A stretch of 42,421 nucleotides of DNA from a virus, in the UHGV virus genome UHGV-0165032; one strand, 5' to 3'. Shown in pieces: positions 3,727-39,555 of the stretch. Position numbers and translations under genes: made by a program. Position 1 is the first letter of the stretch, and each line of letters opens with the position of its first letter. The notes under the pieces were generated by a model, which made no database searches, was not told the DNA's origin, and was given only the letters and a program-made list of their open reading frames with translations.

Positions 3727-3747
3727 CAGGTATTAATCCCCTAAGGG

Positions 3748-4227
3748 ATGATACATAGAACAACACTTGGTCAGATTGCGATATGTCACGATATACTTTC
3801 TGACCCTGGGCCGGGACCTATCAGACCTCCTTTACCCGGCCCGAAAGGAGGGATTGAATTGAGATACACAAAAAATTCTGATGTTATCCAATGTGCTGTG
3901 TACAATGCCCTGGGCGTAGGAAAACAGAATGCCATAAGCAGGGCGGAACTCAGCCGGATTACTGGATATAAGGATAGACGTATCCGTGAGGCAATAGAGG
4001 GCATGCGATACAGTAAGGTTATCATTAACCTGGACAATGGTGACGGATATTACATACCTGACTCAACGCTCCAGGGCCGCCGTGAAGCCGCTGCCTGGAT
4101 TGCAAGGCAGGACAGGAGGATACAGTCCATGAAGGCAGCTACAAAGGGCGCTAGGCGGTTCGTGAACGGGGTAAGGAGCAAGGGTATCCCAGGCCAGATA
4201 AGTATGTTCGGGATGGGAGGCATGTAG
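3748..4227 (+). CDS. hypothetical DNA-binding protein (winged-helix-like: ISRAELSRITGYKDRRIREAIEGM)
   Basis: HTH-like segment; replication-module context. Confidence 0.4.
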   Translation: MIHRTTLGQIAICHDILSDPGPGPIRPPLPGPKGGIELRYTKNSDVIQCAVYNALGVGKQNAISRAELSRITGYKDRRIREAIEGMRYSKVIINLDNGDGYYIPDSTLQGRREAAAWIARQDRRIQSMKAATKGARRFVNGVRSKGIPGQISMFGMGGM

Positions 4228-7741: not shown

Positions 7742-8014
7742 ATGGGAAAAGAAATATTAGTTCATGGGGCTATGAAATACAGATGTGAAAAGTGCCACAA
7801 AGAGTGGTGGATGTTTCTTGAAAAGGGAATAGAGGAATTTGGAGAAAACCATAAGCCAAGTCCATTTACAATCAGGTGTAAATGTGGCGGTATGGCGAGA
7901 GATATATCTGGAATCTGCAAAATACCATCTGGAAAATATGAGCCACTTCCACACGGAGAAAGCTATTTTGCAAATAAACCGGAATCAGAATGTGCTGTAC
8001 CAATATTAAACTGA
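7742..8014 (+). CDS. hypothetical Cys-rich protein (CEKCHKEWW...CKCGG)
   Basis: AGGAGG SD 6 nt upstream. Confidence 0.5.
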   Translation: MGKEILVHGAMKYRCEKCHKEWWMFLEKGIEEFGENHKPSPFTIRCKCGGMARDISGICKIPSGKYEPLPHGESYFANKPESECAVPILN

Positions 8015-8055
8015 CAATTGAGCAATATTAACATTTTAACGGAGGTGTAAAGTAA

Positions 8056-8319
8056 ATGGTTACTGTATTTTGCCAGGGCAGGGATATCGGTGGAAATGTG
8101 ACATTTTGGAAAGAAGGAAAATCTTATTTTTATCAATCGGAAGGCATTGGAAATCCGACAAAATGCAGTAAGAAACTATATGATGATGCAGTTGTAGAAT
8201 ACAAGAAACAAAAACGGCAAATTAATATTTTGATGGAGGATAAGAATTGTGGTAAAAGGAAAAGCAAAGTTAATATTTGGAACTGGGGATATTATGATGA
8301 CACCTGTCCTGCGCAGTGA
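8056..8319 (+). CDS. hypothetical protein
   Basis: GGAGG SD upstream. Confidence 0.4.
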   Translation: MVTVFCQGRDIGGNVTFWKEGKSYFYQSEGIGNPTKCSKKLYDDAVVEYKKQKRQINILMEDKNCGKRKSKVNIWNWGYYDDTCPAQ

Positions 8320-8566
8320 AAACGATACTCCTCAATATGGTATGTTAGCGTTTAAAACAACAGAACCGCATGAAATAGGCTCATATGCAGGGAATGACAA
8401 AAGGTTTATGTTGTCAAATGCAGATACATTGATGGTGTTTTACAGGGTAGAGAGCATTGATGTCTGTATAGAAAGGCTTAATACACTTAAAGAAATGATG
8501 CTTGGAAGCACTGATGATGTTATGGAATTGGATGCGGTAGAAACCGAGGATGATTTTATCATCTAA
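8294..8566 (+). CDS. hypothetical protein
   Basis: ORF overlapping the end of the previous gene; start uncertain (8249 or 8294). Confidence 0.35.
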   Translation: MMTPVLRSENDTPQYGMLAFKTTEPHEIGSYAGNDKRFMLSNADTLMVFYRVESIDVCIERLNTLKEMMLGSTDDVMELDAVETEDDFII

Positions 8567-8582
8567 AACAGTGAAATTAACA

Positions 8583-8690
8583 TTTGGGCGGTGTATGGTA
8601 CACAGGGCCAGGTTCGACTCCTGGGCGGTCTACGGACTGTAACTGTGGGGAAAGTAAGAGGGTGCCGGTTCGACTCCGGCCGCCGCCAAC
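8583..8690 (+). other. two tRNA 3'-end-like fragments (..CCAGGTTCGACTCCTGGGCGGTC and ..GCCGGTTCGACTCCGGCCGCCGCCA) that do not fold into a complete tRNA
   Basis: T-arm (GGTTCGACTCC) plus acceptor-like 3' sequences with no matching 5' halves. They sit 450 bp upstream of the second tyrosine recombinase. Confidence 0.5.
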
Positions 8691-8723
8691 TTAGCATTTG
8701 CGATACGAAGGAGAGTGATATGC

Positions 8724-8966
8724 ATGTCGGCCAAAGCGGAGGCATTATATGACCTATATGACTGCGGGAGACTGGATGGGCGATACAGCACATCGGAATT
8801 AATGGTGATGTTAGGTATCCGGCATCGTACCATGATTCCCAACTATAGTGTCTCAGGAGTGCTATATCGTAAGCGCTACCTATTTGAAAGGGTGGATGAT
8901 GATCCAATAAGTAAGGCGTTGGCAGCGGAATGGGACAAGACAAGGAAACAGATATTGGAGCAATAA
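8724..8966 (+). CDS. hypothetical protein
   Basis: GAAGGAGAG SD 8 nt before ATG 8724. Confidence 0.45.
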   Translation: MSAKAEALYDLYDCGRLDGRYSTSELMVMLGIRHRTMIPNYSVSGVLYRKRYLFERVDDDPISKALAAEWDKTRKQILEQ

Positions 8967-8976
8967 TATAAGGCAA

Positions 8977-8995
8977 GCCGGGGGAATCCCCCGGC
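8977..8995. terminator. GC-rich hairpin gccggggg-aat-cccccggc (possible bidirectional terminator)
   Basis: 8-bp perfect stem with a 3-nt loop; a T-rich tract follows on the minus strand. Confidence 0.45.
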
Positions 8996-9142
8996 AAATA
9001 AAAACGAAAGCAGAGAACGTATGTGCGAAAATAACAAGCGATGGTCACCCGCCAAGATGATTCCACCGCTCCCGTAAATACGTCTGAGTATATTATACCT
9101 TACTCGGACGTGAAAATCAATACGAATGAGGAGGATATAATT

Positions 9143-10189
9143 ATGAGTACACAGACAATAAAAGCTGAAATCATCAACAATGTACTGGTAGCAATGTCCT
9201 TATATATCATGGAGCAGCAGACTCTTACCATTCTGCAAAATGTAATGCAGCAGGAATTGGTTAGGGTGAACATGGAAGAAATAACTACACTTCCAGTAGA
9301 AAGAAAAAATGATATAAGTCAACGGAATCAGTACATAATACAGTTATTCCTGATTAAAAAGCGTGATTTAGCAAGAGGAACCAAAGAAAACTATCTTAAT
9401 TCCATACGAAGATTGCTGACAGAGATAAGCACAAAATCACTGGACCAGATGGACACCACTGATATTGATTGGTATTTATCGCGATATGAAATCAGAAATG
9501 TGTCCAGTGGAGGAAAGAAAAACCAGCCTAGCACTTATAATAACGAGCGCCGTTTTTTGTCAGCATTCTTTACATGGATGCGCCTTGAGAAGCTTATTAC
9601 AGATAATCCGGTAGAGTCTATACCGGCTAAAAAAGTACCCATTAAACCAATTGATTACTACAGCCCGGAAGAATCTGCAAGATTAAGGGATGCGTGCAAA
9701 AATATCCGCGAGAGGGCCTTGCTAGAGGTACTTCGAAGTACTGGAGCCAGGATAGGGGAGATTGCAGAAATAACTCTGGACCAGATAGACATGAGAACCG
9801 GCGATATTTGGATACAGGGAGAGAAAGGCGGAAGATATCGGACTATCTATCTGGATGATGATGCGCGTCATTACTACGGACTGTATTTGGACAGCAGGAA
9901 AGATGATTGTCCATATATGTTCCCACGCTCCAGAAAACCGTATGGAAAGATGACTACTTGTGGATTTCGGGCGATATTGAAAACCATAAGGAAAAGAGCT
10001 GGACTCACATGTCGCGTATATCCGCATAAGTCACGAAAGACGCTGGGGATGAATCTGAAAAATCGAGGGGTTGATATTGGAACCATACAGGAAATTATGG
10101 GACATGCAGACCCAGGAGTTACGGCACGTTATTATGCACAGTCTAACCCGCGCACTCTTCGTTCAGTAAGAGAAAGAGTTAATGTGTAG
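9143..10189 (+). CDS. tyrosine site-specific recombinase (XerC/XerD-like phage integrase family), second copy in this genome
   Basis: Catalytic residues in order: R (ARIGE), K, HxxR (HKSRKT), H (GHAD) and Y (ARYY). SAM-like N-terminal domain. GAGGAGG SD before ATG 9143. Confidence 0.8.
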   Translation: MSTQTIKAEIINNVLVAMSLYIMEQQTLTILQNVMQQELVRVNMEEITTLPVERKNDISQRNQYIIQLFLIKKRDLARGTKENYLNSIRRLLTEISTKSLDQMDTTDIDWYLSRYEIRNVSSGGKKNQPSTYNNERRFLSAFFTWMRLEKLITDNPVESIPAKKVPIKPIDYYSPEESARLRDACKNIRERALLEVLRSTGARIGEIAEITLDQIDMRTGDIWIQGEKGGRYRTIYLDDDARHYYGLYLDSRKDDCPYMFPRSRKPYGKMTTCGFRAILKTIRKRAGLTCRVYPHKSRKTLGMNLKNRGVDIGTIQEIMGHADPGVTARYYAQSNPRTLRSVRERVNV

Positions 10190-10200
10190 GAAGGAGGGCT

Positions 10201-10503
10201 ATGAGGACCAGGTATAAGAACTATAGTGATTATGGAATTACGGAGGATGAAGCCAAACGCATAAAAGAATACTGCCAGACCGCCAGTGTAGAAGATAAGC
10301 TAACATTGTTCCAGTGCGCCATATCCTCGGCTCCTGGATTGGAGGTGGAGATATACGAAAGCCTTGTAAGTAATATCGGATATGACAAGCTGAGTAAGAT
10401 GAAGAATATACCAATTAAACGGGATGACTTTTACGGGTATCAAAGAAAAACGCTGGATGAATATAGGCGGTTGATGACATTGTTTGGGAGGTGGAAAGGA
10501 TGA
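10201..10503 (+). CDS. hypothetical protein
   Basis: GGAGGG SD; translationally coupled to the recombinase gene. Confidence 0.45.
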   Translation: MRTRYKNYSDYGITEDEAKRIKEYCQTASVEDKLTLFQCAISSAPGLEVEIYESLVSNIGYDKLSKMKNIPIKRDDFYGYQRKTLDEYRRLMTLFGRWKG

Positions 10504-10520
10504 TTAGTGTATATGCTTAA

Positions 10521-10536
10521 ATGTGGGGACGATTTA
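10521..10536 (+). promoter_or_regulatory. candidate late-promoter/activator motif aaatgtggggacgatt (copy 1), followed 16 nt later by ggtaaaat
   Basis: 16-nt identity with 20451..20466. Located about 65 nt upstream of the terminase small-subunit start. Confidence 0.4.
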
Positions 10537-10601
10537 CATTACATACGCATGGTAAAATTAGTATAGGACTATTATACCGTGTGAAGCACAAAGAATAAGA
10601 G

Positions 10602-11027
10602 GTGGTGAGTGTGGCTTCCAGGCTGACGGATAAGCAGAAAAAAGATATTATCGCTGATTATGTGGAGACTGGAAGTTATAATGCCACAGCAAAGAAATTT
10701 GGAGTGGCGCTGAACACAGTCAAAAAGATATGCACACAAAATGCAGATATTGCACAAAAATGCAAACAAAAAAAAGAACAGAACACAGCGGACATGTTAG
10801 CTTATATGGATTCCCGAAAAGAGCAGGCACAAGGGATAATAGATAAGTACCTTGAAAAGCTGGCAGACCCGGAAAAGCTGGAAAGTGCAACTATATCCCA
10901 AATTGCAACAGCGATGGGGATAGTAGTTGATAAATTTATGGATAATACAAAAAAAGGAGAAAATGCAGAAGGAGTCACCATTTTGAATGATATACCAAAG
11001 CCGGGAAAGGGGAATGGTGATGCATGA
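10602..11027 (+). CDS. terminase small subunit (HTH-containing)
   Basis: N-terminal HTH (LTDKQKKDIIADYVETGSYNATAKKFGVALNTVKK). It immediately precedes the large subunit and overlaps it. Confidence 0.65.
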   Translation: MVSVASRLTDKQKKDIIADYVETGSYNATAKKFGVALNTVKKICTQNADIAQKCKQKKEQNTADMLAYMDSRKEQAQGIIDKYLEKLADPEKLESATISQIATAMGIVVDKFMDNTKKGENAEGVTILNDIPKPGKGNGDA

Positions 11028-12277
11028 GTGACATAATAAATCTGACTGATGTAATCGCCCCTTCCTTTTATGACGTTCACTGGGATATCCTGGACGGAAA
11101 GCATACATATTATGACCTCTACGGCGGGCGCGGCTCCACGAAGTCCTCTTTCATGTCCGTGGAAATTATACTGGGGATGATGCAGGACGAAAAGGACGGA
11201 GTTTTCAGCAATTCGGCAGTATTTCGTAAGGTAGGAAACACCTTACGGGAATCTGTATTTGAACAAATTGCATGGGCGATTGATGCACTGGGGGCCAATG
11301 ACCTGTGGGCGTCCAGTGTTAGCCCCATGCAGTATGTGTATAAACCCACTGGCCAGAAAATCATCTTCCGAGGACTGGACAAGGCGAAGAAAACGAAATC
11401 TATCAAGACGAGCCGAGGATATTTTAAATACCTCTGGTTCGAGGAATTGGACGAGTTTGCCGGGATTGAGGAAATCAGAACAGTGCAGCAGTCCGTCCTT
11501 CGTGGCGGGAGTAAATTTGTGGTGTTCAAGTCCTTCAACCCTCCAATCAGCCGGAGCAACTGGGCGAATGTGTACGTCAACGAGCCAAGAGAGGACAGCT
11601 GCCGGCACAAGAGCGACTATACCACAGTGCCGGAGGAATGGCTGGGAGAACAGTTTATAGCAGACGCCGAACATCTGAAAGCCACCAATCCAAGGGCATA
11701 TGAACATGAATACATGGGCAATCCCGTTGGACTGGGAACGAATATTTTTGATATGTTGGATGTGCGTACAATAACAGACGAAGAAATCAGCCGCATGGAG
11801 CGTATCTATCAAGGGCAAGACTGGGGCTGGTATCCTGACCCGAAAGCCTTTATCCGGGCGGCGTACATCCATAGCACTGAAACAATCTATCTGTTGGACG
11901 AGTTGGGCGGCTGTAAAATCCGTAACAGCCAAATGGCAGAGGATATAAAGGAAAAGGGCTATGATGATTATGAAATCCGCTGCGGCGCTGATGAACAGGA
12001 AAGCATAGTTGACTTTAGGGATGCTGGACTTCCGGCCAGACAGGCCAATGTTGGGCCGGGTAGTGTGAAATATACCTTTGAATGGCTTCAGTGCCGGACA
12101 ATCGTTATAGACCCGGCCAGAACGCCGAGAGCATACAAGGAAATCATAGAGTATGAACATGAAGTAGACAGCAATGGGGAAGTGATTGCAGACTATCCAG
12201 ACCACAATAACCACTGGATTGACGCACTCCGCTATGCTACAAGCCCATTATCAATGAGAAGGGGAAACAGCGCATGA
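11024..12277 (+). CDS. terminase large subunit (PBSX/XtmB-like)
   Basis: Walker A YGGRGSTKS; 417 aa; a conserved nuclease half follows. Confidence 0.85.
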   Translation: MSDIINLTDVIAPSFYDVHWDILDGKHTYYDLYGGRGSTKSSFMSVEIILGMMQDEKDGVFSNSAVFRKVGNTLRESVFEQIAWAIDALGANDLWASSVSPMQYVYKPTGQKIIFRGLDKAKKTKSIKTSRGYFKYLWFEELDEFAGIEEIRTVQQSVLRGGSKFVVFKSFNPPISRSNWANVYVNEPREDSCRHKSDYTTVPEEWLGEQFIADAEHLKATNPRAYEHEYMGNPVGLGTNIFDMLDVRTITDEEISRMERIYQGQDWGWYPDPKAFIRAAYIHSTETIYLLDELGGCKIRNSQMAEDIKEKGYDDYEIRCGADEQESIVDFRDAGLPARQANVGPGSVKYTFEWLQCRTIVIDPARTPRAYKEIIEYEHEVDSNGEVIADYPDHNNHWIDALRYATSPLSMRRGNSA

Positions 12278-12499: not shown

Positions 12500-13927
12500 A
12501 TGGGACTAATAAAATGGGCTAAAAAGGTGATAGGAATGATATTCAAGCGACAGGCAGAAGAAGATTTCAACGTTGAATCAGTGGTATCCCCGGAGATGGA
12601 AAGCAAGATTACAGAGTGCGCCAATATCTACCGGGGTACGCCATATTGGGTAAACGCTGATGATAACGTTAAGACAATCAACTTTGCAAAGGCTATATGC
12701 TCGGAGACGGCCCGCCTTGCTACCCTGGCAATTGGAATACAGATTGATGGGAGCGCGCGGGCGGCATGGCTCCAGGAGCAGATTGACAAGATATATTTCC
12801 AGATTCGTCACTGGGTAGAGTATGGTATGGCCTACGGCACAATCATCCTTAAGCCCAATGGAAAAGGACTGGACATATTTACACCGATGGACTTTATCAT
12901 TACAGATTGTGATAATGAGGGTATCTATGGAATCGTATTCAAGGATAGCTACAGTGAAAATGATAAGTATTATACCCGGTTTGAGTATCATCGGTTTGTT
13001 GAGGTAAAGGATGGGGAGAACACCTATTACCCATATTACATATCCAATAGAGCTTATGTGTCTCACTCTGCAAAAAGTGTGGGGGACCCGATAGCATTAA
13101 ACAGGACTAAGTGGTCTGACTTACTTCCAGAGACACCGCCTATACTCAAGGCTAACAATGATAAAATAGACGGCCCCATGTTTGGTGTACTCCGCACTCC
13201 ACAGGCTAACAATTTGGATATCTCATCACCTTTGGGATTGCCAATGTTTGCCGAGGCCATAGAAGAATTAAAGGACCTTGATGTGGCATATAGTCGGAAT
13301 GTGGGTGAAATATTTGACAGTGAGAAAATTATATTAATTGATGACCAATTAATGCTTGGTGATGGAAGAAATTTAAAACGCCCAGGAGTAAATAAAGTTA
13401 AATTACCCCATTATGTAAGAAATGTATTTGGAAATAGTAATGGAGAATTTTACCATGAGATTAATCCATCGTTAAATACTGATATAAGACTTACTGGAAT
13501 TAATAATCTTCTTTCATTTATTGGATTCAAGTGCGGATATTCCAATGGGTATTTTGTGCTTGATGAAAAAACAGGAATGGTCACAGCCACACAGGTAGAG
13601 GCTGACGACAGGAGAACCATACAGCTAATCAAGGATGTGCGCGACAAACTGGAAAGTTGTCTTGACGGGGCAATATATGCGCTCAATGTATATGCTGACC
13701 TGTACGGACTGGCACCAGCCGGAAACTACGAAATAACATATGATTTTGGGGACATTACATACAACCGTGAAGAGGACCGGGCAAGATGGTGGCAGTATGT
13801 TGTGCAGGGAAAGGTGCCGGCCTGGATGTATTTTAGAAAGTTTGAAGGATTATCTGAAGAAGATGCAAAAGCTATGGTAAAGGAAGCACAGCCGAAGGAT
13901 GGACCTAGGATGTTTGAGGAGGAATAA
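12500..13927 (+). CDS. portal protein
   Basis: 475 aa, position after the terminase, SPP1-portal-like features. Confidence 0.75.
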   Translation: MGLIKWAKKVIGMIFKRQAEEDFNVESVVSPEMESKITECANIYRGTPYWVNADDNVKTINFAKAICSETARLATLAIGIQIDGSARAAWLQEQIDKIYFQIRHWVEYGMAYGTIILKPNGKGLDIFTPMDFIITDCDNEGIYGIVFKDSYSENDKYYTRFEYHRFVEVKDGENTYYPYYISNRAYVSHSAKSVGDPIALNRTKWSDLLPETPPILKANNDKIDGPMFGVLRTPQANNLDISSPLGLPMFAEAIEELKDLDVAYSRNVGEIFDSEKIILIDDQLMLGDGRNLKRPGVNKVKLPHYVRNVFGNSNGEFYHEINPSLNTDIRLTGINNLLSFIGFKCGYSNGYFVLDEKTGMVTATQVEADDRRTIQLIKDVRDKLESCLDGAIYALNVYADLYGLAPAGNYEITYDFGDITYNREEDRARWWQYVVQGKVPAWMYFRKFEGLSEEDAKAMVKEAQPKDGPRMFEEE

Positions 13928-18218: not shown

Positions 18219-18617
18219 ATGGCAGATTTTGTAACTGCTGGCACACAGACTGTTGAAGTCAATGGAAGTGTACTGTTTGCAGCAAACCGGGTATATTCCT
18301 GTAATTGCCCAAATATAAGGCATGAGCCACTTTCTGGGAGAGTGGTTTTACTTCCTGGCCTGTACCGTGTAGGCTTTAACGGAAACTTTTCCGCAGCCGC
18401 AGCAGGTGACGTTATATTTGAAGTGCAGCAGGACGGCGAAGGCATTCCCGGTGCAAGAATCCAGAACACAGTTGCCGCCGGCGCAACAATCAATGGAGCA
18501 GCAACGGTAGAAGTAAGGGTGTGCAAACCATGTTGCGCTACCTTATCGGTAAAAAACGTTGGAGCCACAGCGGCGACAGTATCAGACGCTAACCTTGTTG
18601 TTAGCAGAATAGGTTAA
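18219..18617 (+). CDS. C1q/TNF-like (BclA C-terminal-domain-like) beta-sandwich protein
   Basis: AAGGAGG SD 8 nt before ATG 18219. Alternating beta-strand pattern with Gly/Ala/Val/Asn-rich loops resembles the exosporium BclA C-terminal domain. Confidence 0.35.
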   Translation: MADFVTAGTQTVEVNGSVLFAANRVYSCNCPNIRHEPLSGRVVLLPGLYRVGFNGNFSAAAAGDVIFEVQQDGEGIPGARIQNTVAAGATINGAATVEVRVCKPCCATLSVKNVGATAATVSDANLVVSRIG

Positions 18618-20694: not shown

Positions 20695-21043
20695 AGCCAG
20701 TCGCCAGCCGCAGAGCCATACAGATTACAGCAATGTAGTTTGCATGGCTTTTTACTATATTTGAACCTCCCTCATATAGCACATGTCCTTAACAGAAACA
20801 GGTCCTAGCTCATAGAGTAAACGGCCTAGAGGTTGAAAAGCGGATGCAATTTCCGGCATGTGCATTCCTTCTAAAGGCTATCCTCCTCCCGTAATGGAGA
20901 TAGAAAAAACTTGTCAGTTATGACCTGGACGAAACTGAAAAATGATACGGCATTGTTTTGGTGGGATATCGGCGGGCTGACAGCATTTCAGAGTACATAT
21001 GCGGCGCAAAAAGGCGTGACGAGGAGTTTTCAAGAAATGCAAT

Positions 21044-21116
21044 CGGGAAATAGCTCAGTTGGTAGAGCAGCAGCCTTATAAGCTGTGTGTCAGAGGTTCG
21101 ATTCCTCTTTTCCCGA
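21044..21116 (+). tRNA. tRNA with anticodon UAU (AUA-decoding Ile-like)
   Basis: The cloverleaf was folded by hand: acceptor CGGGAAA/TTTCCCG, D-arm GCTC-AGTTGGTA-GAGC, anticodon arm GCAGC-CTTATAA-GCTGT, T-arm AGAGG-TTCGATT-CCTCT. Confidence 0.7.
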
Positions 21117-21265
21117 TGTAGTCGGGTCGCTCCCGGATGATGTGAGAGCACGCAGAATGCCTCACAGAGAATGACAATGCCTGCTGAAAACTACTGCGAT
21201 AGTTCCAGGGACTAGGACACGGGACTGAAATTCGCAGTGTGACAATCTAAGCAGGAACTGCATCA

Positions 21266-21354
21266 TGAGGATTCGCCAAGCGGTTAAGGCACCGGGTTTT
21301 GACCCCGGCAAAGAAGGAACACTCTTTACGCTGGTTCAAATCCAGCATCCTCAG
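21266..21354 (+). tRNA. class II-like tRNA with a 21-nt variable arm, U1:A72, G73 and an apparent anticodon UUG; isotype ambiguous (Gln-like identity elements on a Ser/Leu-like scaffold)
   Basis: Acceptor TGAGGAT/ATCCTCA, D-arm GCC-(10 nt)-GGC, anticodon arm CCGGG-TTTTGAC-CCCGG, extra arm AAAGA...TCTTT, T-arm GCTGG-TTCAAAT-CCAGC. Confidence 0.5.
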
Positions 21355-21445
21355 TTTTGGACACGCCAAGTCCTACAAAATGGCAAACCGTTGGTGGACG
21401 GTTACACACCTACAAATAACCTAATAACGGAAAAGGAGAATCATC

Positions 21446-35379: not shown

Positions 35380-36141
35380 ATGAATAACATAGAAAATATC
35401 CAAGAATATATACCTACTGTGTATGTTAATGACTCTGAGCCAGATTTGGATGAGACAAACTTAAACAAAACAGAACAGGCAATAAAACGGGTAACCGATG
35501 CAGCCAATAAAGCAATTGATGCATTAAAGCAACTGGACCGGGAGAAGTTAGCGTTATCTGCTATATCTAACGTATTATCTGATGCTACAGATAAGGTTCC
35601 ATCATTGGCTTTAGCTAATACAATGCAGCTCGCGATTAATGACTTAAATAGCAATTTAGGAATGAAAATCACTTCTGGTAACATGACCGAAATTATCGGT
35701 GCCTTGCCGGTCGGAAAATATGCTGGGTACTATAGTTCTGGCTCATTTGGTGCACCCTCACATTACGGTACATTTGAGGCGGTTGTGATGAATTCTTCTA
35801 CCGCTACCATCACTGCAATAGATACCAGTAATAAAGTATCCTATCTCAATGTAAAAACAAGTGACGTTTGGTGTGGTTGGCAAAGCAATTCATATGGAAT
35901 ATATTTGTCTGATAGGGATTTGAATACAGTAAAACTACCAGGAACATATATACAGACCGCTAATGCATCTGCAACAACCACCCTACATTACCCCGTAGCT
36001 GGAGCTGCTGGCTTTTTAGAAGTCATAGGTTTAAATAATAATGACTGGTTATTACAACGCTATACTGGCTGGGGTACTGCTAATCAGACCTATAAACGTG
36101 TTTTGTATCAAGGTTCTTGGCGTGATTGGATGGCTGAGTAA
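35380..36141 (+). CDS. tail fibre protein with an exchangeable C-terminal tip domain
   Basis: GGAGG SD; N-terminal coiled-coil-like segment; C-terminal domain paralogous to the inverted segment downstream. Confidence 0.55.
   Translation: MNNIENIQEYIPTVYVNDSEPDLDETNLNKTEQAIKRVTDAANKAIDALKQLDREKLALSAISNVLSDATDKVPSLALANTMQLAINDLNSNLGMKITSGNMTEIIGALPVGKYAGYYSSGSFGAPSHYGTFEAVVMNSSTATITAIDTSNKVSYLNVKTSDVWCGWQSNSYGIYLSDRDLNTVKLPGTYIQTANASATTTLHYPVAGAAGFLEVIGLNNNDWLLQRYTGWGTANQTYKRVLYQGSWRDWMAE
35646..35659. repeat. left copy of the 14-bp inverted repeat aaatagcaatttag, inside the fibre gene (codons for LNSNL)
   Basis: its exact reverse complement is present at 36697..36710. Confidence 0.8.
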
Positions 36142-36145
36142 ATGA

Positions 36146-36710
36146 TTATTTTGGAATTAATAACAGCTGAGCGGAAGGTGATGTTGTAATAGCGGCATTG
36201 GTGACGTTTCTGAGCTGTAGTGTAATGTTTGTACCATCAGCTCTAAAATAGTAGATATAACAACCATTATTTCCACTTCCTACTTCTCTGGCATCTAGTA
36301 GCTTGTATCCAGATGGGATTTGGCCGGAAATATTTGTTGTTGAGCCAGCAATACCAGCGTTGGCAGGTACAGTTACTTGATTTAAGCTTACTATTTTTGT
36401 GAGAAAATCCGCATTTGTTAAAAGTGATGATTCATGTTCCCACTTGTTTGCAATAGGGTTCCAAATCCGCTGATGATTCTGTTCTATGTCGTATTGAGTG
36501 AATGATTGTCTGATATATTGAGTGCCATTTGTATAATCCACTTTTAGGATAAATGCTTTGCTGAGTGGACAATTTTTTAAAGTTGCGGCATTAGCATTAC
36601 CCGGACAATAATAATTGCCGGGAACTTTATAATCATCTGAATACAGATCCGCGTTGTCTGGTATCAATATACCTCCAGACAAGCTATAACAATTTTCTAA
36701 ATTGCTATTT
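36146..36710 (-). CDS. alternative tail-fibre C-terminal domain cassette, inverted orientation (Sv'-like); it would be expressed only after inversion
   Basis: The minus-strand ORF is paralogous to the fibre C-terminus (PG.Y...NA.A...P...W..W pattern). Its 3' end abuts the fibre stop and its 5' boundary is the inverted repeat. Confidence 0.5.
36697..36710. repeat. right copy (ctaaattgctattt) of the 14-bp inverted repeat
   Basis: reverse complement of 35646..35659; encodes NSNL in the minus-strand cassette, in the same frame. Confidence 0.8.
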
Positions 36711-36743
36711 GTAATATAAAAACATACCCATGAAAGGAGTAAA

Positions 36744-37157
36744 ATGAACCAATTAAAACTATCAAACAACACAAAATACGACTTAATAACAAACGGGGTG
36801 GAAGAATCAGGCGATTACCTAACCCTGTCGTTTCTTCCCGGCCTAGACAGTTTTGAAACGGTAGAATCCGAATTTAATCCGACAAATACAGAAAAAATTT
36901 ACATACTTGGTTTGGACGGTCAGCCGATGGAAGTAAAAACCGGATTTACTCAGCTGGTTGAGATGCGCAAGAAAATGGATTATGTCATTTCATCTGAGAC
37001 AGTAAATACCGGAACCGAGGAAGAGCCGAATTATGAAACCAATGAAGTGAAGGATACCATTATGGTTGTTAAACTTCGTAGGCCAGATATCCGGGATACA
37101 GTGCGGACATTGCAAGATACAGTGGATGCAATAATTTTAAGTCAGCTGGAGGTGTAA
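36744..37157 (+). CDS. hypothetical acidic protein (XkdW-position)
   Basis: GAAAGGAG SD. Confidence 0.45.
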   Translation: MNQLKLSNNTKYDLITNGVEESGDYLTLSFLPGLDSFETVESEFNPTNTEKIYILGLDGQPMEVKTGFTQLVEMRKKMDYVISSETVNTGTEEEPNYETNEVKDTIMVVKLRRPDIRDTVRTLQDTVDAIILSQLEV

Positions 37158-37158
37158 C

Positions 37159-37284
37159 ATGTATACAACATTAAAAAGGCTATATAACAATGGTAAAGGT
37201 CCATTAACTGTTGCCGAACTTAACCGGGCTGTGTCAATTGGATGGATTACAGAGCAGCAGAAAAACAGTATAATCGGAGGATGA
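37159..37284 (+). CDS. XkdX-family small protein
   Basis: 41 aa, MYTTLKRLYNNG...ITEQQKNSIIGG, typical XkdX size and position before the lysin. Confidence 0.5.
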   Translation: MYTTLKRLYNNGKGPLTVAELNRAVSIGWITEQQKNSIIGG

Positions 37285-37286
37285 TT

Positions 37287-38027
37287 ATGAGAGATATCAC
37301 ATTGTGCCATCCAAGCTTGCAGCTTTTAGCGGGTCAGTTGGTGTATGAATGCAATAAACAGGGATTAAAAATTAAGATAGGCGAAACACTGCGAACCGTG
37401 GCAGAACAGGATGCTTTATACGCTCAGGGCAGGACTAAACCGGGGAACATTGTAACTAATGCTCCTGGCAGCAGCTACAGTTCCTATCATCAGTGGGGTA
37501 CTGCCTTTGATATCTTCCGCAATGACGGCGCTGGTGCTTATAATGAAATTGGGGGCTTTTTTAACCGTGTAGGTGCTATCGGTGTATCTTTAGGACTTGA
37601 ATGGGGTGGAAATTGGAAGTCTCCTGTGGACAAGCCACATTTCCAGTTGCCGAATTGGGGAAGCAGCACATCTGGAATCAAGAAACTGTATCGTAACCCG
37701 GATGAATTTATGAAAACCTGGGTTACGGAGGAGCGCACAGGCTGGATTAAAGATAATAACGGCTGGTGGTACCGCAGACCGGATGGAACTTGCCCAGCTA
37801 ATAAGTGGTGTATCATAAATCACCATTGGTACTTATTTAATAAGGATGGTTATGCCTGCACCAGCTGGCACCGCTGGAATGGCAGTACATGTGACCCGGA
37901 TGACGGTTCGGGTGATTGGTATTACTTTGACCCTACACCAAACGGTCCTTTGGAGGGGGCATGCTGGCATAGTCAAGATAATGGCGCGCAGGAAATCTGG
38001 TACATAGAGGATTCTAACTCAATATAA
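37287..38027 (+). CDS. endolysin: N-terminal peptidase M15 (VanY / L-Ala-D-Glu peptidase-like) plus C-terminal cell-wall-binding repeats
   Basis: SYHQWGTAFD and DKPHFQ zinc-ligand motifs; C-terminal GW/WYY repeats (NNGWWYRRPDG, HHWYLFNKDGY, GDWYYFDPTPNG). Confidence 0.8.
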   Translation: MRDITLCHPSLQLLAGQLVYECNKQGLKIKIGETLRTVAEQDALYAQGRTKPGNIVTNAPGSSYSSYHQWGTAFDIFRNDGAGAYNEIGGFFNRVGAIGVSLGLEWGGNWKSPVDKPHFQLPNWGSSTSGIKKLYRNPDEFMKTWVTEERTGWIKDNNGWWYRRPDGTCPANKWCIINHHWYLFNKDGYACTSWHRWNGSTCDPDDGSGDWYYFDPTPNGPLEGACWHSQDNGAQEIWYIEDSNSI

Positions 38028-38083
38028 AAGCGCCAGAACTTAACTCTGACGCTTCTATGTATAATATACCATCTTCGGAAATA

Positions 38084-38104
38084 TGCAACACGAAATGCAA
38101 CACG
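38084..38104 (+). repeat. two direct TGCAACACG arm-type repeats (P-arm candidates)
   Basis: the same 9-mer is repeated twice more at 38280..38298, flanking the tRNA-like core. Confidence 0.55.
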
Positions 38105-38136
38105 GAGCCTGGAAACCGCATAAAACCGTTGTATTT

Positions 38137-38162
38137 TGCGGGTTCGAATCCCGTATGCTCCA
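38137..38162 (+). other. attP core candidate: tRNA 3' end (T-arm GCGGGTTCGAATCCCGT plus acceptor ATGCTCCA)
   Basis: tRNA 3'-half-like sequence without a 5' half, between the lysis gene and the integrase gene. Confidence 0.55.
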
Positions 38163-38170
38163 TTTTATTA

Positions 38171-38216
38171 AAACCTTGTAGATACGGGAAAAACAACGTA
38201 TTTACAAGGTTTTTTC
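38171..38216. terminator. 15-bp stem-loop aaaccttgtagatac...gtatttacaaggttt followed by a T-run
   Basis: Near-perfect inverted repeat; likely terminator of the late operon, or an architectural site within attP. Confidence 0.5.
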
Positions 38217-38279
38217 ATGTTTTAAAACAGCACTTCCTATGCCTACCACGGTGGAAAATATGCTATTTTTTATTATATA

Positions 38280-38298
38280 TGCAACACGATGCAACACG
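38280..38298 (+). repeat. two direct TGCAACACG arm-type repeats (P'-arm candidates)
   Basis: matches 38084..38104. Confidence 0.55.
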
Positions 38299-38315
38299 GA
38301 AAATATGTTATTTTA

Positions 38316-39389
38316 TTACATGCTGTTTAATTTTTCAAAGTGCTTATTAATTTTTTTGTTCTGCCGGACGCTTTCCAGGTCAATTACATTTCTATATACT
38401 GCTTTCATGATATTGTCGCTGGCCCATCCCCCCCGTTGTAAAATATATTGGTCCGGTATGCCTATGGCGTGCATAATGGATGCAGCATAATGCCGGAGGT
38501 CGTGAAAGCGGAAATGGGGTATGTCAATCTTTTTGAGTACTCGTCCGAATCGGTGTGTGATGTAATCCGGGTTCATGTCAACCAATTTTCCTTTTTTTCC
38601 AGATATCCGGTCAATTACAAATGCTGGCATTTCTACATCCCGTGTGCTATCATCCGTCTTAGGCTGTTTAATGTACCATTGATTATCTGGCCCCTTGACC
38701 ATATTGTCTCTTACATGGATTATCTTTCCGTCCACGTTCTTGTCGGTTAGGGCGCTTATTTCTCCACGCCTAAGTGGTCCAAAGGCTGCTAGTAATACAG
38801 CTATTTCTAAATCAGTACTTTTGATTGCCTCCAGCAGCTTTTTAATATCATTGTCATTGGGGCAATATAAGTCAGGACGTTTTTTCTGAGGCAGCTTAAC
38901 TTTTAGAGTTAAATACGGTGCAAACATCTCCAGGGATGCAGATAACAGGCCATAGGCATTACGGACCGTCTTTGGAGAGAGTTGTTTTGAAGCCAAATCA
39001 CTTATCCATATCTGTACAGATGGATTAGTTAGCTCTGAAAGCCGTTTACGCCCAAATGCGCCGCTGAAATACTGTCTTTGCAATCCGGTATACCCTCTGA
39101 GCGTAGAAGGGCTTAAAACGCCTTTCTTGACGCTCAAATAACGCTCGATAGCTTGGCTCACTGTTATATCTTCTTCCCCGTCCTCTTCCGGGTCATTGTA
39201 TTGTTCTATAGGTTTATCTTTCATGTCTAATTTCCATCTGGTAGCCATCTCCTTTGCCTCTTTACGTGATGGGGCAACAAAGCTTTTGTAATGCCGCTTA
39301 CCTTTATCATCTGTATACAGATACACTTGCACTCGGACATTTCCAGACGGCAGTACTCCTTTTTTTCTTTTCGGGGCTTTTGTAGTCAT
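38316..39389 (-). CDS. int: phage integrase (tyrosine recombinase with an N-terminal AP2-like arm-binding domain)
   Basis: VRVQVYLYTDDKGKRHYKSF N-domain; catalytic R (LRRGE), HxxR (HDLRH), W (GGWAS), Y (AVYRN). Start at MTTKAP, with GGAGGAAAGAGAA SD. Confidence 0.85.
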   Translation of the reverse strand: MTTKAPKRKKGVLPSGNVRVQVYLYTDDKGKRHYKSFVAPSRKEAKEMATRWKLDMKDKPIEQYNDPEEDGEEDITVSQAIERYLSVKKGVLSPSTLRGYTGLQRQYFSGAFGRKRLSELTNPSVQIWISDLASKQLSPKTVRNAYGLLSASLEMFAPYLTLKVKLPQKKRPDLYCPNDNDIKKLLEAIKSTDLEIAVLLAAFGPLRRGEISALTDKNVDGKIIHVRDNMVKGPDNQWYIKQPKTDDSTRDVEMPAFVIDRISGKKGKLVDMNPDYITHRFGRVLKKIDIPHFRFHDLRHYAASIMHAIGIPDQYILQRGGWASDNIMKAVYRNVIDLESVRQNKKINKHFEKLNSM

Positions 39390-39555
39390 TTCTCTTTCCT
39401 CCTTCAATTGATTTTCCTAAAAATAGGTATAAAAAATACAGCTCCGCAAACATCTTGCAAAGCCGCCCCGAAGATGGTACAATATAGGTGCGAATTATAG
39501 TACATATCTTCGGGTATGTAAGCCGGTTCCTGTTGGCGCAGGGGCCGGTTTTGTT

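What the first reader, a model, noticed from the sequence alone, without database searches (positions are those of the whole stretch)
8570..10510. Second tyrosine recombinase preceded by orphan tRNA 3'-end fragments, wedged between the early region and the late promoter
The genome already has a canonical int-attP next to the repressor (38.1-39.4 kb). It carries a second, XerC/D-like tyrosine recombinase (9143..10189) with a SAM-like N-terminal domain and no AP2-like arm-binding domain. This sits about 450 bp downstream of two incomplete tRNA 3'-end-like sequences, both containing GGTTCGACTCC T-arms, and a GC hairpin. A coupled 100-aa ORF follows, and the whole block sits directly before the terS late-promoter motif. 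It could be a dimer-resolution or plasmid-prophage maintenance recombinase. It could be the invertase for the tail-fibre switch. It could also be the remnant of a small integrative element that inserted into a phage-borne tRNA gene, with the tRNA-like fragments as att scars.
Basis: partly seen in the sequence, partly recalled or inferred. Interest (0 to 1): 0.6.

Follow-up and report, generated by a model that had tools for sequence, protein, structure and literature searches.

The report
Spare phage recombinase beside tRNA-like RNA
A temperate phage of gut Lachnospiraceae carries, besides its real integrase, an optional second DNA recombinase with a conserved sequence element in front of it. 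The nearby 'tRNA fragments' are one small tRNA-shaped element from a family absent from Rfam, not an integration scar.

Summary
The sequence features exist, but the reading needs correcting.

1. **The tRNA-like sequence.** 8587-8688 is not two orphan tRNA 3' ends. It is one 102-nt tRNA-like unit: a 7-bp acceptor stem stacked on a T-arm, plus an inner second T-arm-like hairpin. It recurs in 25 viral contigs with compensatory changes. It always sits between co-directional early ORFs and is not linked to the recombinase. ARAGORN and Rfam do not recognise it.

2. **The recombinase.** 9143-10189 is a catalytically intact Xer-type tyrosine recombinase. It lies deep inside prophages and is missing or decayed in close relatives. 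It is therefore accessory, not the integrase. Int (38316-39407) is the integrase, and its attP carries a genuine tRNA 3' end.

3. **ORF100.** It is not coupled to the recombinase. It precedes terS in many phages that lack the enzyme.

4. **New observation.** A conserved ~105-nt leader (9037-9142) with two inverted repeats accompanies this recombinase family down to 24% protein identity.

5. **The tail-fibre switch.** It inverts in nature, but it persists in relatives without this recombinase.

The enzyme's substrate is unproven. My best guess (about 0.3) is a lox-like action at its own upstream repeat.

The parts
8587..8688 (+). Type-A tRNA-like element. Acceptor stem 8587-8593/8681-8687, discriminator A8688, no encoded CCA. 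Stem 2: 8596-8599/8642-8645. Inner T-arm-like hairpin: 8608-8612/8620-8624, loop TTCGACT. Optional hairpin: 8625-8630/8635-8640. True T-arm: 8664-8668/8676-8680, loop TTCGACT.
   Evidence: The MFE fold closes the acceptor stem. In 8 distinct variants, all 27 pairs are 100% paired and 4 pairs show changes on both sides; slid controls give 26-56%. The covariance model scores 100.8 bits, E 5.6e-24. No ARAGORN or Rfam call.
8721..8966 (+). Small ORF (81-83 aa, phrog_25231), function unknown. A homolog lies directly upstream of the recombinase leader in 19 of 58 loci, including phages whose recombinase is only 24% identical.
   Evidence: The AF2 model has low confidence (pLDDT 70) and no PDB fold match at E<1.
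8977..8995 (.). GC hairpin GCCGGGGG-AAT-CCCCCGGC after the small ORF. It is not followed by a T-run on the + strand.
   Evidence: Sequence. Not listed by the terminator scan.
9037..9142 (+). Conserved leader of the recombinase gene. IR-1 is 9037-9044/9063-9070, with intervening sequence TCACCCGCCAAGATGATT. IR-2 is 9080-9090/9101-9111 (ACGTCTGAGTA / TACTCGGACGT) around the centre TATTATACCT. The motif GAAAATCAATAC, the RBS and the ATG follow.
   Evidence: The left edge of the homology block shared with relatives is exactly 9037. The leader is present upstream of all homologs at 55-99% identity. In IR-1, 5 of 8 pairs are compensatory. IR-2 arms covary while the centre stays constant across 136 leaders. 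The same leader precedes recombinases only 24-26% identical. The window holds a single copy.
9143..10189 (+). Accessory Xer-type tyrosine recombinase (348 aa): an N-terminal extension of about 65 aa, a SAM-like core-binding domain and a catalytic domain. Catalytic residues: R203, K228, H295, R298, H321, Y331.
   Evidence: Pfam. NCBIfam best hit XerA, 145 bits, below its cut-off. PDB relatives are XerC-like 4a8e, XerA 5hxy and XerD 1a0p. The catalytic residues are invariant in 22 homologs.
10201..10503 (+). ORF100, a conserved all-helical pre-terS protein of unknown function. It is not specific to the recombinase.
   Evidence: No Pfam, PHROG or NCBIfam hit. Homologs precede terS/terL in 49 of 80 related loci, of which only 2 carry a full recombinase. 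Of 39 close loci, 13 lack an intact recombinase. AF2 pLDDT 93.5 with no PDB fold match.
10520..10578 (+). Conserved box before terS: AATGTGGGGACGATTTACATTA ... TATTATACC. Presumed late promoter or regulatory region.
   Evidence: Unique in the window. Conserved in relatives after variable 345-3500-nt inserts, and duplicated in L017/L018. It shares TATTATACC with the IR-2 centre.
35646..36710 (.). Context: invertible tail-fibre segment. IRL is 35646-35662 and IRR is 36694-36710, with core AAATAGCAATTT. It lies between the convergent fibre C-terminal cassettes 35380-36141(+) and 36146-36772(-).
   Evidence: Homology with relatives breaks exactly at the repeats, and the same 466-nt segment is found in both orientations.
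38316..39407 (-). Context: the true integrase. Its attP is at ~38080-38300, with a tRNA 3' end at 38137-38161 and ATGCAACACG arm repeats.

Best explanation
The 8570-10510 block is three independent mosaic modules that happen to be neighbours at the early/late junction of a temperate Lachnospiraceae (Enterocloster-type) siphophage.

**(i) The tRNA-like element (8587-8688).**
- Shown: it is a 102-nt element embedded in the early operon. It has a 7-bp acceptor stem stacked on a canonical T-arm, a discriminator A and no encoded CCA. The anticodon arm is replaced by a second T-arm-like hairpin.
- Inferred: it is transcribed with the early genes and folds into a tRNA-like L-shape. The host tRNA-end enzymes (RNase P, RNase Z, CCA-adding enzyme) then recognise it. 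They would cut the polycistronic early mRNA at that point and release a stable small RNA.

**(ii) The recombinase cassette (9037-10189).**
- Shown: it is a facultative, moron-like unit made of a conserved two-repeat leader plus a catalytically intact Xer-type tyrosine recombinase. It is not the integrase.
- Inferred, about 0.3: the enzyme works like single-site systems such as Cre/loxP or XerS/difSL. It would act on the one inverted repeat next to its own gene (IR-2, 9080-9111). That would fuse and resolve circular phage genomes (monomer-multimer interconversion) just before the terminase genes are expressed.

**(iii) ORF100.** It is a general pre-terS gene, unrelated to the recombinase.

The stated confidence covers the whole statement, mechanism included. 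The structural claims alone (one tRNA-like unit, independent modules, accessory non-integrative recombinase) I hold at about 0.85.
For: **tRNA-like unit**
- The fold and covariation support one closed structure.
- It occurs in 25 contigs as 8 variants. Neighbouring ORFs lie on the same strand, ending 1-32 nt upstream and starting within about 30 nt downstream in most contigs. These flanking ORFs differ between contigs.
- In relatives its distance to the recombinase ranges from about 0.45 to 3 kb, and most close relatives lack it.

**Not the integrase**
- The recombinase lies between early genes and terS, at least 10 kb inside the fetched prophage loci.
- Prophage-host junctions and the attP tRNA end lie next to Int.

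**Facultative**
- 13 of 39 loci with 89-96% identical ORF100 lack an intact gene: 5 keep a remnant and 8 have none.
- Some copies are internally deleted but keep the leader.

**Active**
- The R-K-H-R-H-Y residues are invariant in homologs at 55-96% identity.

**A site next to the gene**
- The leader is co-inherited with the gene; the homology block starts at 9037.
- The IR-2 arms change in concert between clades while the 8-nt centre ATATTATA stays constant. This holds even upstream of recombinases only 24% identical.
- IR-2 can be read as 12-8-12, like lox or FRT.
- The window holds a single copy, as expected for a resolution-type site.
- L031 is a hybrid whose junction falls inside the IR-2 centre. 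The left arm comes from one clade; the right arm and the gene come from another.
- The order small ORF, leader, recombinase, regulator, terS, terL is kept in very different phages.
Against: - No experiment supports any of this.
- The perfect IR-2 arms are 10-14 nt apart in most clades and 19-21 nt apart in the 58% clade. Tyrosine-recombinase cores have 6-8-bp spacers.
- The repeats could equally be an RNA leader or an operator around a -10-like TATTATA. Mismatches in IR-2 are U-G type on the + strand, which suits RNA. The one mismatch in IR-1 is A-C.
- Mosaic breakpoints cluster at 9037, not at IR-2. Only one hybrid was seen in 136 leaders, and homologous exchange in the shared 16 nt would explain it.
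- An integrating phage that carries a Gp157-type recombination-module gene has no obvious need for this function.
- For the tRNA-like unit, the single-sequence fold z-score is not significant. Only 8 variants exist, and transcription and processing are untested.
Confidence: 0.3

Rival explanations
1. The recombinase is the invertase of the tail-fibre switch. It would act in trans on the repeats at 35646-35662 and 36694-36710 to swap the fibre C-terminus, as Gin does for the Mu G segment or Rci for the R64 shufflon.
For: - The switch is real and flips in nature. Homology breaks exactly at the repeats, and the same 466-nt segment occurs in both orientations. Many contigs end at IRL.
- The window has no serine recombinase. 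Only Int and this enzyme are candidates.
- Int's arm and core sequences do not resemble the fibre repeat.
- phiCs5676-1 has the same two-recombinase layout and a candidate 16-nt in-frame repeat pair in its tail genes.
Against: - At least six related contigs have no detectable recombinase homolog but keep intact fibre repeats.
- More distant relatives have a serine integrase and no Xer upstream of terS, yet carry perfect 22-40-nt fibre repeats.
- Contigs break at IRL in recombinase-less assemblies too.
- The gene lies 26 kb from the switch, and its position next to terS is conserved even in phages with different tail modules.
- The fibre repeat does not resemble IR-2.
Confidence: 0.15
2. The leader is purely cis-regulatory, either an RNA structure or an operator/promoter. 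The recombinase would then act on a target outside the phage, such as host invertible promoters or a secondary site. In that case it is a moron that benefits the lysogen.
For: - The cassette is facultative with sharp boundaries.
- The loop and centre sequences of the leader are conserved while the stems covary, which is typical of a structured regulatory element.
- No second site exists in the phage.
- Phages with several tyrosine recombinases of unknown role are documented (PMC9703825).
Against: - No host target was identified.
- The leader has no Rfam match.
- Strict synteny with the packaging genes across very divergent phages suggests a role in the phage cycle.
Confidence: 0.25
3. The block is the remnant of a small integrative element that inserted into a phage tRNA gene, and the T-arm sequences are att scars.
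For: - Two T-arm motifs lie 450 nt upstream of a recombinase.
- tRNA genes or tRNA-like elements recur near this junction in relatives.
Against: - The two motifs belong to one closed, covarying structure that is conserved as a whole in 25 contigs.
- That structure occurs far from, or without, the recombinase.
- The cassette boundaries (9037 and ~10188) carry no direct repeats and do not include the element.
Confidence: 0.03
4. The tRNA-like element is a decaying phage tRNA pseudogene with no function of its own.
For: - No consistent anticodon, and no ARAGORN call even with relaxed settings.
- The element's covariance model also hits real phage tRNAs weakly.
- tRNA genes are common at this junction.
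Against: - All 27 pairs are kept in all 8 variants, with compensatory changes in four helices.
- Long single-stranded stretches are invariant across phages whose flanking genes are unrelated.
- A second, smaller family (type B) shows the same design with its own compensatory changes.
Confidence: 0.15

Closest known systems
Xer-family single recombinases (archaeal XerA, XerS/difSL, XerD)
   Same: - Two-domain tyrosine recombinase without an arm-binding domain.
- Best NCBIfam and PDB relatives are XerA, XerC-like and XerD.
- Full catalytic hexad.
- An inverted repeat lies immediately upstream of the gene, as difSL does for xerS (this comparison is from my own knowledge).
   Different: - Scores fall below every equivalog cut-off.
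- It has an extra N-terminal region of about 65 aa.
- It is phage-borne and facultative.
- The adjacent repeat is 11-10-11 rather than 11-6-11, and its spacing varies between clades.
Cre/loxP of phage P1
   Same: A non-integrative phage tyrosine recombinase with a single site close to its gene and near the packaging functions, used for cyclisation and multimer resolution (from my own knowledge).
   Different: - P1 is a plasmid prophage, whereas this phage integrates through a separate Int.
- No sequence similarity beyond the superfamily.
- Site function here is untested.
Phage DNA-inversion host-range switches (Mu Gin/G segment, P1 Cin/C segment; R64 Rci shufflon)
   Same: - The fibre gene has a constant N-terminal part followed by alternative C-terminal cassettes in opposite orientation.
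- The cassettes are bounded by short inverted repeats, and both orientations are seen in nature.
   Different: - No adjacent invertase gene and no serine recombinase in the genome.
- The switch is kept in relatives lacking the Xer-like enzyme, so the enzyme responsible is unidentified.
Accessory Xer-like recombinases of other phages (e.g. the three in Bacillus 'Tyroviruses')
   Same: These are additional tyrosine recombinases with Xer-type domains. They are placed among lytic-cycle genes and their role is unresolved (PMC9703825).
   Different: - Different phage group and no close sequence relationship.
- The family here has a distinctive conserved leader and a fixed position before terS.
tRNA-like RNAs (tmRNA tRNA-like domain, bacterial YrlA Y RNAs, plant-virus TLS, mascRNA)
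   Same: An acceptor stem stacked on a T-arm with a consensus T-loop, without a decoding anticodon arm. This is an expected substrate shape for RNase P, RNase Z and the CCA-adding enzyme.
   Different: - No match to any Rfam family, tmRNA and tRNA included, beyond a 17-nt T-arm hit.
- No mRNA-like domain (aragorn -m).
- No Ro/Rsr gene was noticed among the window ORFs scanned.
- It has a unique inner second T-arm and sits in a phage early operon.

Membership tests
Tyrosine recombinase superfamily (Pfam PF00589) | Catalytic domain match above the curated cut-off | tested here: met
   107.3 bits against a cut-off of 27.1.
Tyrosine recombinase superfamily (Pfam PF00589) | Catalytic R-K-H-R-H/W-Y residues present and conserved | tested here: met
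   R203, K228, H295, R298, H321 and Y331 are invariant in 22 homologs at 55-96% identity.
Xer chromosome-dimer resolvases (XerC/D/A/S) | Scores above the NCBIfam equivalog cut-off | tested here: not met
   XerA 145 bits against 220, XerD 101 against 330, XerC 96 against 335.
Xer chromosome-dimer resolvases (XerC/D/A/S) | Acts on a dif-type 11-6-11 site | tested here: inconclusive
   The only adjacent repeat is 11-10-11, readable as 12-8-12. Its spacing is 19-21 nt in the 58% clade. Activity is not testable here.
Phage integrase (lambda-Int type) | Gene sits at a prophage end next to attP/attL, with arm-type repeats and identity to the host target | tested here: not met
   The gene is at least 10 kb from either end of the fetched prophage loci. 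Junctions, the tRNA 3' end and the ATGCAACACG repeats lie beside the other int.
Tyrosine DNA invertases (FimB/E, Rci, RecV type) | An invertible segment bounded by inverted repeats exists in the genome | tested here: met
   The fibre switch at 35646-36710 occurs in both orientations in relatives.
Tyrosine DNA invertases (FimB/E, Rci, RecV type) | The recombinase co-occurs with, or lies adjacent to, the invertible segment | tested here: not met
   The gene is 26 kb away. The switch is retained in at least 6 contigs without any homolog, and in serine-integrase relatives.
Canonical tRNA | Cloverleaf with an anticodon arm, recognised by ARAGORN or the Rfam tRNA model | tested here: not met
   No call at 8570-8700. 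Relaxed ARAGORN gives inconsistent or no anticodons across variants.
tmRNA | tRNA-like domain plus a tag-encoding mRNA-like domain | tested here: not met
   Only a 17-nt T-arm match at E 0.11. aragorn -m finds nothing. The element is only 102 nt long.
tRNA-like elements (acceptor/T-arm mimics) | A 7-bp acceptor helix contiguous with a 5-bp T stem, a TTCRANY T-loop and a discriminator base, kept by covariation | tested here: met
   All 27 pairs are 100% paired, with 4 compensatory pairs including G1-C72 to A1-U72.
tRNA-like elements (acceptor/T-arm mimics) | Processed by RNase P/RNase Z, or CCA-tailed or aminoacylated | not testable with these tools
   Needs RNA end-mapping or enzyme assays.
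att site / integration scar derived from a tRNA gene | A partial tRNA 3' end at an element boundary, matching a host tRNA, with empty and filled sites in relatives | tested here: not met
   The element is a closed, complete structure. It is not at the cassette boundary (9037) and occurs in 25 contigs between unrelated ORFs. Comparison with host tRNA genes was not done.

The most novel reading that the evidence does not exclude
The tRNA-shaped elements are a new class of phage non-coding RNA. Type A is at 8587-8688, with its nested second T-arm. Type B is a 64-66-nt family found in relatives. Host tRNA-end enzymes would cut them out of early polycistronic transcripts, a bacterial-virus version of 'tRNA punctuation'. 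The released acceptor/T-arm mimic might also serve as a decoy or sponge for host factors or defence toxins that recognise tRNA acceptor ends. Separately, the two-repeat leader of the recombinase would be a new cis element, either a recombination site or an RNA switch. It defines a widespread phage recombinase module placed just before the packaging genes.
Probability: 0.3. Interest if true: 0.65.

Novelty: new variant of a known kind. Interest (0 to 1): 0.45.

Why it matters
- **Annotation.** A second gene annotated as 'integrase' in the middle of a prophage, together with T-arm-like sequences, invites wrong attP calls. It may also cause wrong provirus boundaries: many IMG/VR proviruses start 0.2-1.2 kb upstream of this gene.
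- **New conserved elements.** Two uncatalogued elements emerge, a tRNA-like RNA family in early operons and a leader that tracks a recombinase family down to 24% identity. Both are directly testable and common in human-gut Lachnospiraceae phages.
- **An orphan switch.** The fibre switch clearly flips but has no assigned enzyme. This is an open question relevant to host-range variation of gut phages.

Tried and rejected
- **Rfam.** Gathering-threshold and E<=10 searches of 8500-9200 found nothing for the tRNA-like unit or the leader.
- **ARAGORN.** Default, relaxed, intron and tmRNA modes gave no consistent gene.
- **Single-sequence fold.** The z-scores are not significant, so I relied on covariation instead.
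- **Phage GenBank.** The only relative found was phiCs5676-1.
- **Literature.** Four searches found no description of this module or element. One paper (PMC9703825) documents unexplained accessory Xer-like recombinases in other phages.
- **ORF100 and the small ORF.** No family, name or significant fold match. My guess that the small ORF is an excisionase-type HTH was not supported by the model, which has β-β-α-α-β-α topology at pLDDT 70.
- **Second copies of the leader repeats.** None in the window.
- **Inversions or repeats around 8000-11200.** None of note.
- **Fibre-segment orientation versus recombinase presence.** Too few near-identical pairs to decide. The five recombinase-less segments match their relatives in a single orientation, and the only whole-segment inversion involves contigs of unknown status.
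- **Serine invertase.** None. A weak Hin tblastn hit at 18258-18368 (E 0.033) has no Pfam support.
- **TATTATACC as a repeated promoter box.** Only 3 copies in the window, one of them inside the portal gene.
Full report
**What is in the sequence**

The window is a ~42-kb temperate siphophage genome. Its early genes run up to about 8.5 kb, and terS/terL start at 10602/11024 (PBSX-type terminase). Structural and tail genes follow, then a lysin at 37242-38027. The lysogeny module holds int at 38316-39407(-) and repressor/cro at about 40.7-41.5 kb. Relatives occur in Enterocloster bolteae, E. citroniae, E. hominis, Dorea and other Lachnospiraceae.

ORF 9143-10189 is a tyrosine recombinase with a SAM-like core-binding domain and no recognisable arm-binding domain. 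Its nearest named and solved relatives are XerA, XerC-like and XerD, but it scores below every curated cut-off. The catalytic residues R203, K228, H295, R298, H321 and Y331 are invariant in 22 homologs at 55-96% identity. The enzyme is therefore under selection as a catalyst.

**The 'two orphan tRNA 3' ends' are one tRNA-like element**

GGTTCGACTCC does occur twice, at 8611 and 8667. However, GGCGGTG at 8587-8593 pairs with CGCCGCC at 8681-8687, directly adjacent to the second T-arm. This gives the acceptor/T-arm coaxial stack of a tRNA with a discriminator A and no encoded CCA. The minimum-energy fold finds the same closure.

The first T-arm-like hairpin lies inside, within a 4-bp stem (8596-8599/8642-8645), together with an optional extra hairpin. 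ARAGORN and Rfam call nothing here. Relaxed ARAGORN runs give inconsistent anticodons across variants.

A pattern search found the element in 25 viral contigs, as 8 distinct variants. On their alignment:
- All 27 proposed pairs are standard pairs in every sequence.
- Four pairs change on both sides. One is G1-C72 to A1-U72, and two lie in the inner hairpin (CCAGG/CCTGG to CGGGG/CCCCG).
- Structures slid by 1-3 columns pair in only 26-56% of cells.

A covariance model built from the alignment finds only these elements, plus weak hits to genuine phage tRNAs. The sample is small and the single-sequence z-score is not significant. The structure is therefore supported but not proven.

**The element is independent of the recombinase**

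In every contig the element lies in a short gap between co-directional small ORFs. The upstream ORF ends 1-32 nt before it, and in most contigs the next ORF starts within about 30 nt. The flanking ORFs differ from contig to contig.

Most relatives whose recombinase is 97-99% identical lack the element. Where it is present, it lies 1.5-3 kb from the recombinase.

A second, smaller family (type B, 64-66 nt) folds as a compact cloverleaf without a credible anticodon loop. It shows compensatory changes in the acceptor and T stems. It sits about 210 nt upstream of the 58-60% homologs. Other relatives have real tRNA genes at this junction.

The early/late junction is thus a general landing place for tRNA and tRNA-like genes, not an att site. 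My inference is that the element is transcribed within the early operon and recognised by RNase P and RNase Z/CCA-adding enzyme. These would cut the mRNA and release a stable RNA. This step is untested.

**The recombinase is not the integrase**

An exact-protein look-up of a 96% homolog shows the gene at least 10 kb inside the fetched prophage loci. The order is always early genes, recombinase, ORF100, terS, terL, portal.

In integrated relatives, homology to the window ends just after the lysin, at window ~38137-38154. Bacterial or other-element DNA follows. That region of the window carries a genuine tRNA 3' end (GCGGGTTCGAATCCCGTATGCTCCA, 38137-38161). Four ATGCAACACG arm-type repeats flank it.

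**The recombinase is a facultative cassette, and ORF100 is not its partner**

Relatives share one block, 9037 to about 10505, with sharp edges. Of 39 loci with 89-98% identical ORF100:
- 26 have the recombinase.
- 5 keep only a 74-aa remnant.
- 8 have none.

Internally deleted copies also occur. ORF100 homologs at 32-56% identity precede terS/terL in 49 of 80 terL-related loci. Only two of these have a full recombinase. ORF100 is a confident all-helical protein with no family and no fold match. It is probably a late-region regulator or packaging accessory, but that is a guess from its position.

**A conserved leader travels with the recombinase**

The 105 nt from 9037 to the start codon contain two inverted repeats:
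- IR-1: 9037-9044/9063-9070, around TCACCCGCCAAGATGATT.
- IR-2: 9080-9090/9101-9111, ACGTCTGAGTA/TACTCGGACGT around TATTATACCT.

Both are present upstream of every homolog examined, including phiCs5676-1 at 55% identity. The arm sequences differ but stay complementary. RNAalifold recovers IR-1 with 5 of 8 pairs compensatory.

In 136 leaders from viral, genome and metagenome contigs, the IR-2 arms appear as CTGAG/CTCAG, TTGAG/CTCAA and CTGGGA/TCCCAG. The more distant clades add CTTAAGG/CCTTAAG and AAAAGAG/CTCTTTT. The centre ATATTATA is constant across the 136.

The same leader precedes 362-aa recombinases that are only 24-26% identical to this one. The order is again small ORF, leader, recombinase, regulator, terS, terL. 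The leader is thus more conserved than the protein. It has no Rfam match and only one copy in the window.

One locus, L031, is a hybrid. Its left arm comes from one clade, and its right arm plus gene come from another. The junction lies inside the IR-2 centre.

**The tail-fibre switch is real but not tied to this enzyme**

The repeats at 35646-35662 and 36694-36710 (17 nt, 94% complementary) lie in convergent fibre ORFs. Homology with relatives stops exactly at them. The same 466-nt segment occurs in both orientations in different contigs. Many contigs end at the left repeat. The core AAATAGCAATTT is kept even where the fibre N-terminus is only about 40% identical.

The window has no serine recombinase. 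Int's binding sequences look unrelated to the fibre repeat. This keeps the invertase idea alive. Three observations count against it:
- At least six related contigs without any detectable homolog keep intact repeats.
- More distant relatives with a serine integrase and no Xer before terS have perfect 22-40-nt repeats.
- Contig breaks at the repeat also occur in recombinase-less assemblies.

A host enzyme or Int may do the flipping.

**Most likely mechanism, and how sure**

Firmly shown:
- The sequence at 8587-8688 is one tRNA-like unit.
- The three modules are independent.
- The recombinase is accessory, intact and non-integrative, and carries a conserved leader.

For the enzyme's action I commit, at about 0.3, to a single-site lox/dif-like role at IR-2. 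That role is fusing and resolving phage circles just before packaging. The reasons are the co-inherited adjacent repeat with covarying arms and a constant centre, its single copy, the L031 hybrid, and the fixed position before the terminase genes.

Against this stand the 10-21-nt arm spacing, the possibility that the repeats are an RNA leader or operator, and the clustering of mosaic breakpoints at 9037 rather than at IR-2. The rivals are:
- A cis-regulatory leader with an unknown, possibly host, target: 0.25.
- Fibre invertase: 0.15.
- Integrative-element remnant: 0.03.

**Comparison with known systems, and novelty**

The enzyme is a new member of the poorly understood accessory Xer-like recombinases of phages (compare PMC9703825). 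It fails the membership tests for Xer equivalogs, for integrases, and, on co-occurrence, for dedicated invertases. The tRNA-like element resembles acceptor/T-arm mimics such as the tmRNA tRNA-like domain or YrlA, but it matches none of them. Overall I rate this a new variant of known kinds. Interest is moderate and comes mainly from the two uncatalogued conserved elements and the orphan fibre switch.

Noticed in passing
window 35646-36710: An actively inverting tail-fibre segment. The 17-nt inverted repeats (core AAATAGCAATTT, encoding LNSNL) bound alternative fibre C-terminal cassettes. Relatives carry the same segment in both orientations, with shuffled cassettes. No dedicated invertase gene is present in the genome.
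   Followed up: yes
window 38080-38300: attP of the canonical Int. It holds a tRNA 3' end (GCGGGTTCGAATCCCGTATGCTCCA, 38137-38161) and four ATGCAACACG arm-type repeats at about 38083, 38095, 38274 and 38288. In prophages the attR side carries a diverged copy, ACGGGTCCGATTCCCGTCAGCAGCT.
   Followed up: partly
window 38060-38078 and 39468-39486: A 19-nt inverted repeat (89% complementary) brackets the int gene and attP region. Its significance is unknown.
   Followed up: no
window 20778-21423: An RNA cluster inside the structural region. It comprises a RAGATH-21 RNA (78 bits), tRNA-Ile(UAU), an 89-nt tRNA-Gln(UUG) with an 18-nt insertion in the variable region, and a GP20-b motif directly before the scaffold gene. 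Just upstream, at 19.4-20.4 kb, lie three minus-strand ORFs including an HTH protein, which looks like a moron.
   Followed up: no
L038-L058 (e.g. L044 420-486), L046 ~3740-3815: Type-B tRNA-like elements of 64-66 nt. They have a compact cloverleaf with an atypical 'anticodon' loop and compensatory changes in the acceptor and T stems. They lie about 210 nt upstream of the 58-60% recombinase homologs.
   Followed up: partly
L158 1143-1235; L046 3458-3549: A Ser-like long-arm tRNA gene sits at the same junction. In L158 it has an aberrant anticodon loop and occupies the place of the recombinase directly upstream of ORF100.
   Followed up: no
L005, L008, L009, L011, L025, L036, L038, L042, L044, L057 (starts of IMG/VR records): Many IMG/VR provirus records begin only 0.2-1.2 kb upstream of this internal recombinase. 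Boundary callers may be taking it for the prophage-end integrase and truncating the early region. This is an inference and was not checked.
   Followed up: no
L100 14672-17665: Next to the prophage attR of a relative lies a different 397-aa tyrosine integrase plus a MobV/Pre-type relaxase. This is probably a mobilisable element integrated in tandem at the same tRNA site.
   Followed up: no
L070 12194-14321, L072 12194-14321: In some relatives the large terminase gene is split by an inserted NUMOD4/HNH_3 homing-endonuclease ORF.
   Followed up: no
L017 5321-5351 and 8842-8900; L018 5463-5493 and 8984-9042: The conserved pre-terS box (AATGTGGGGACGATTT...) is duplicated as direct repeats around a 3.5-kb insertion between ORF100 and terS. 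Other relatives carry 345-1600-nt inserts there, translationally coupled to ORF100.
   Followed up: partly
L085 (phiCs5676-1, OR574845) 12801-13927: The only cultured relative has the same two-recombinase layout. It also has a candidate tail-gene switch: 16-nt repeats, each encoding IIE(K/T)N in frame in convergent ORFs, next to an IS200-like transposase.
   Followed up: partly
L311, L312, L368: The leader is retained but the recombinase is internally deleted. An example is a 77-aa fusion of the N- and C-termini, which shows ongoing loss of the gene.
   Followed up: partly
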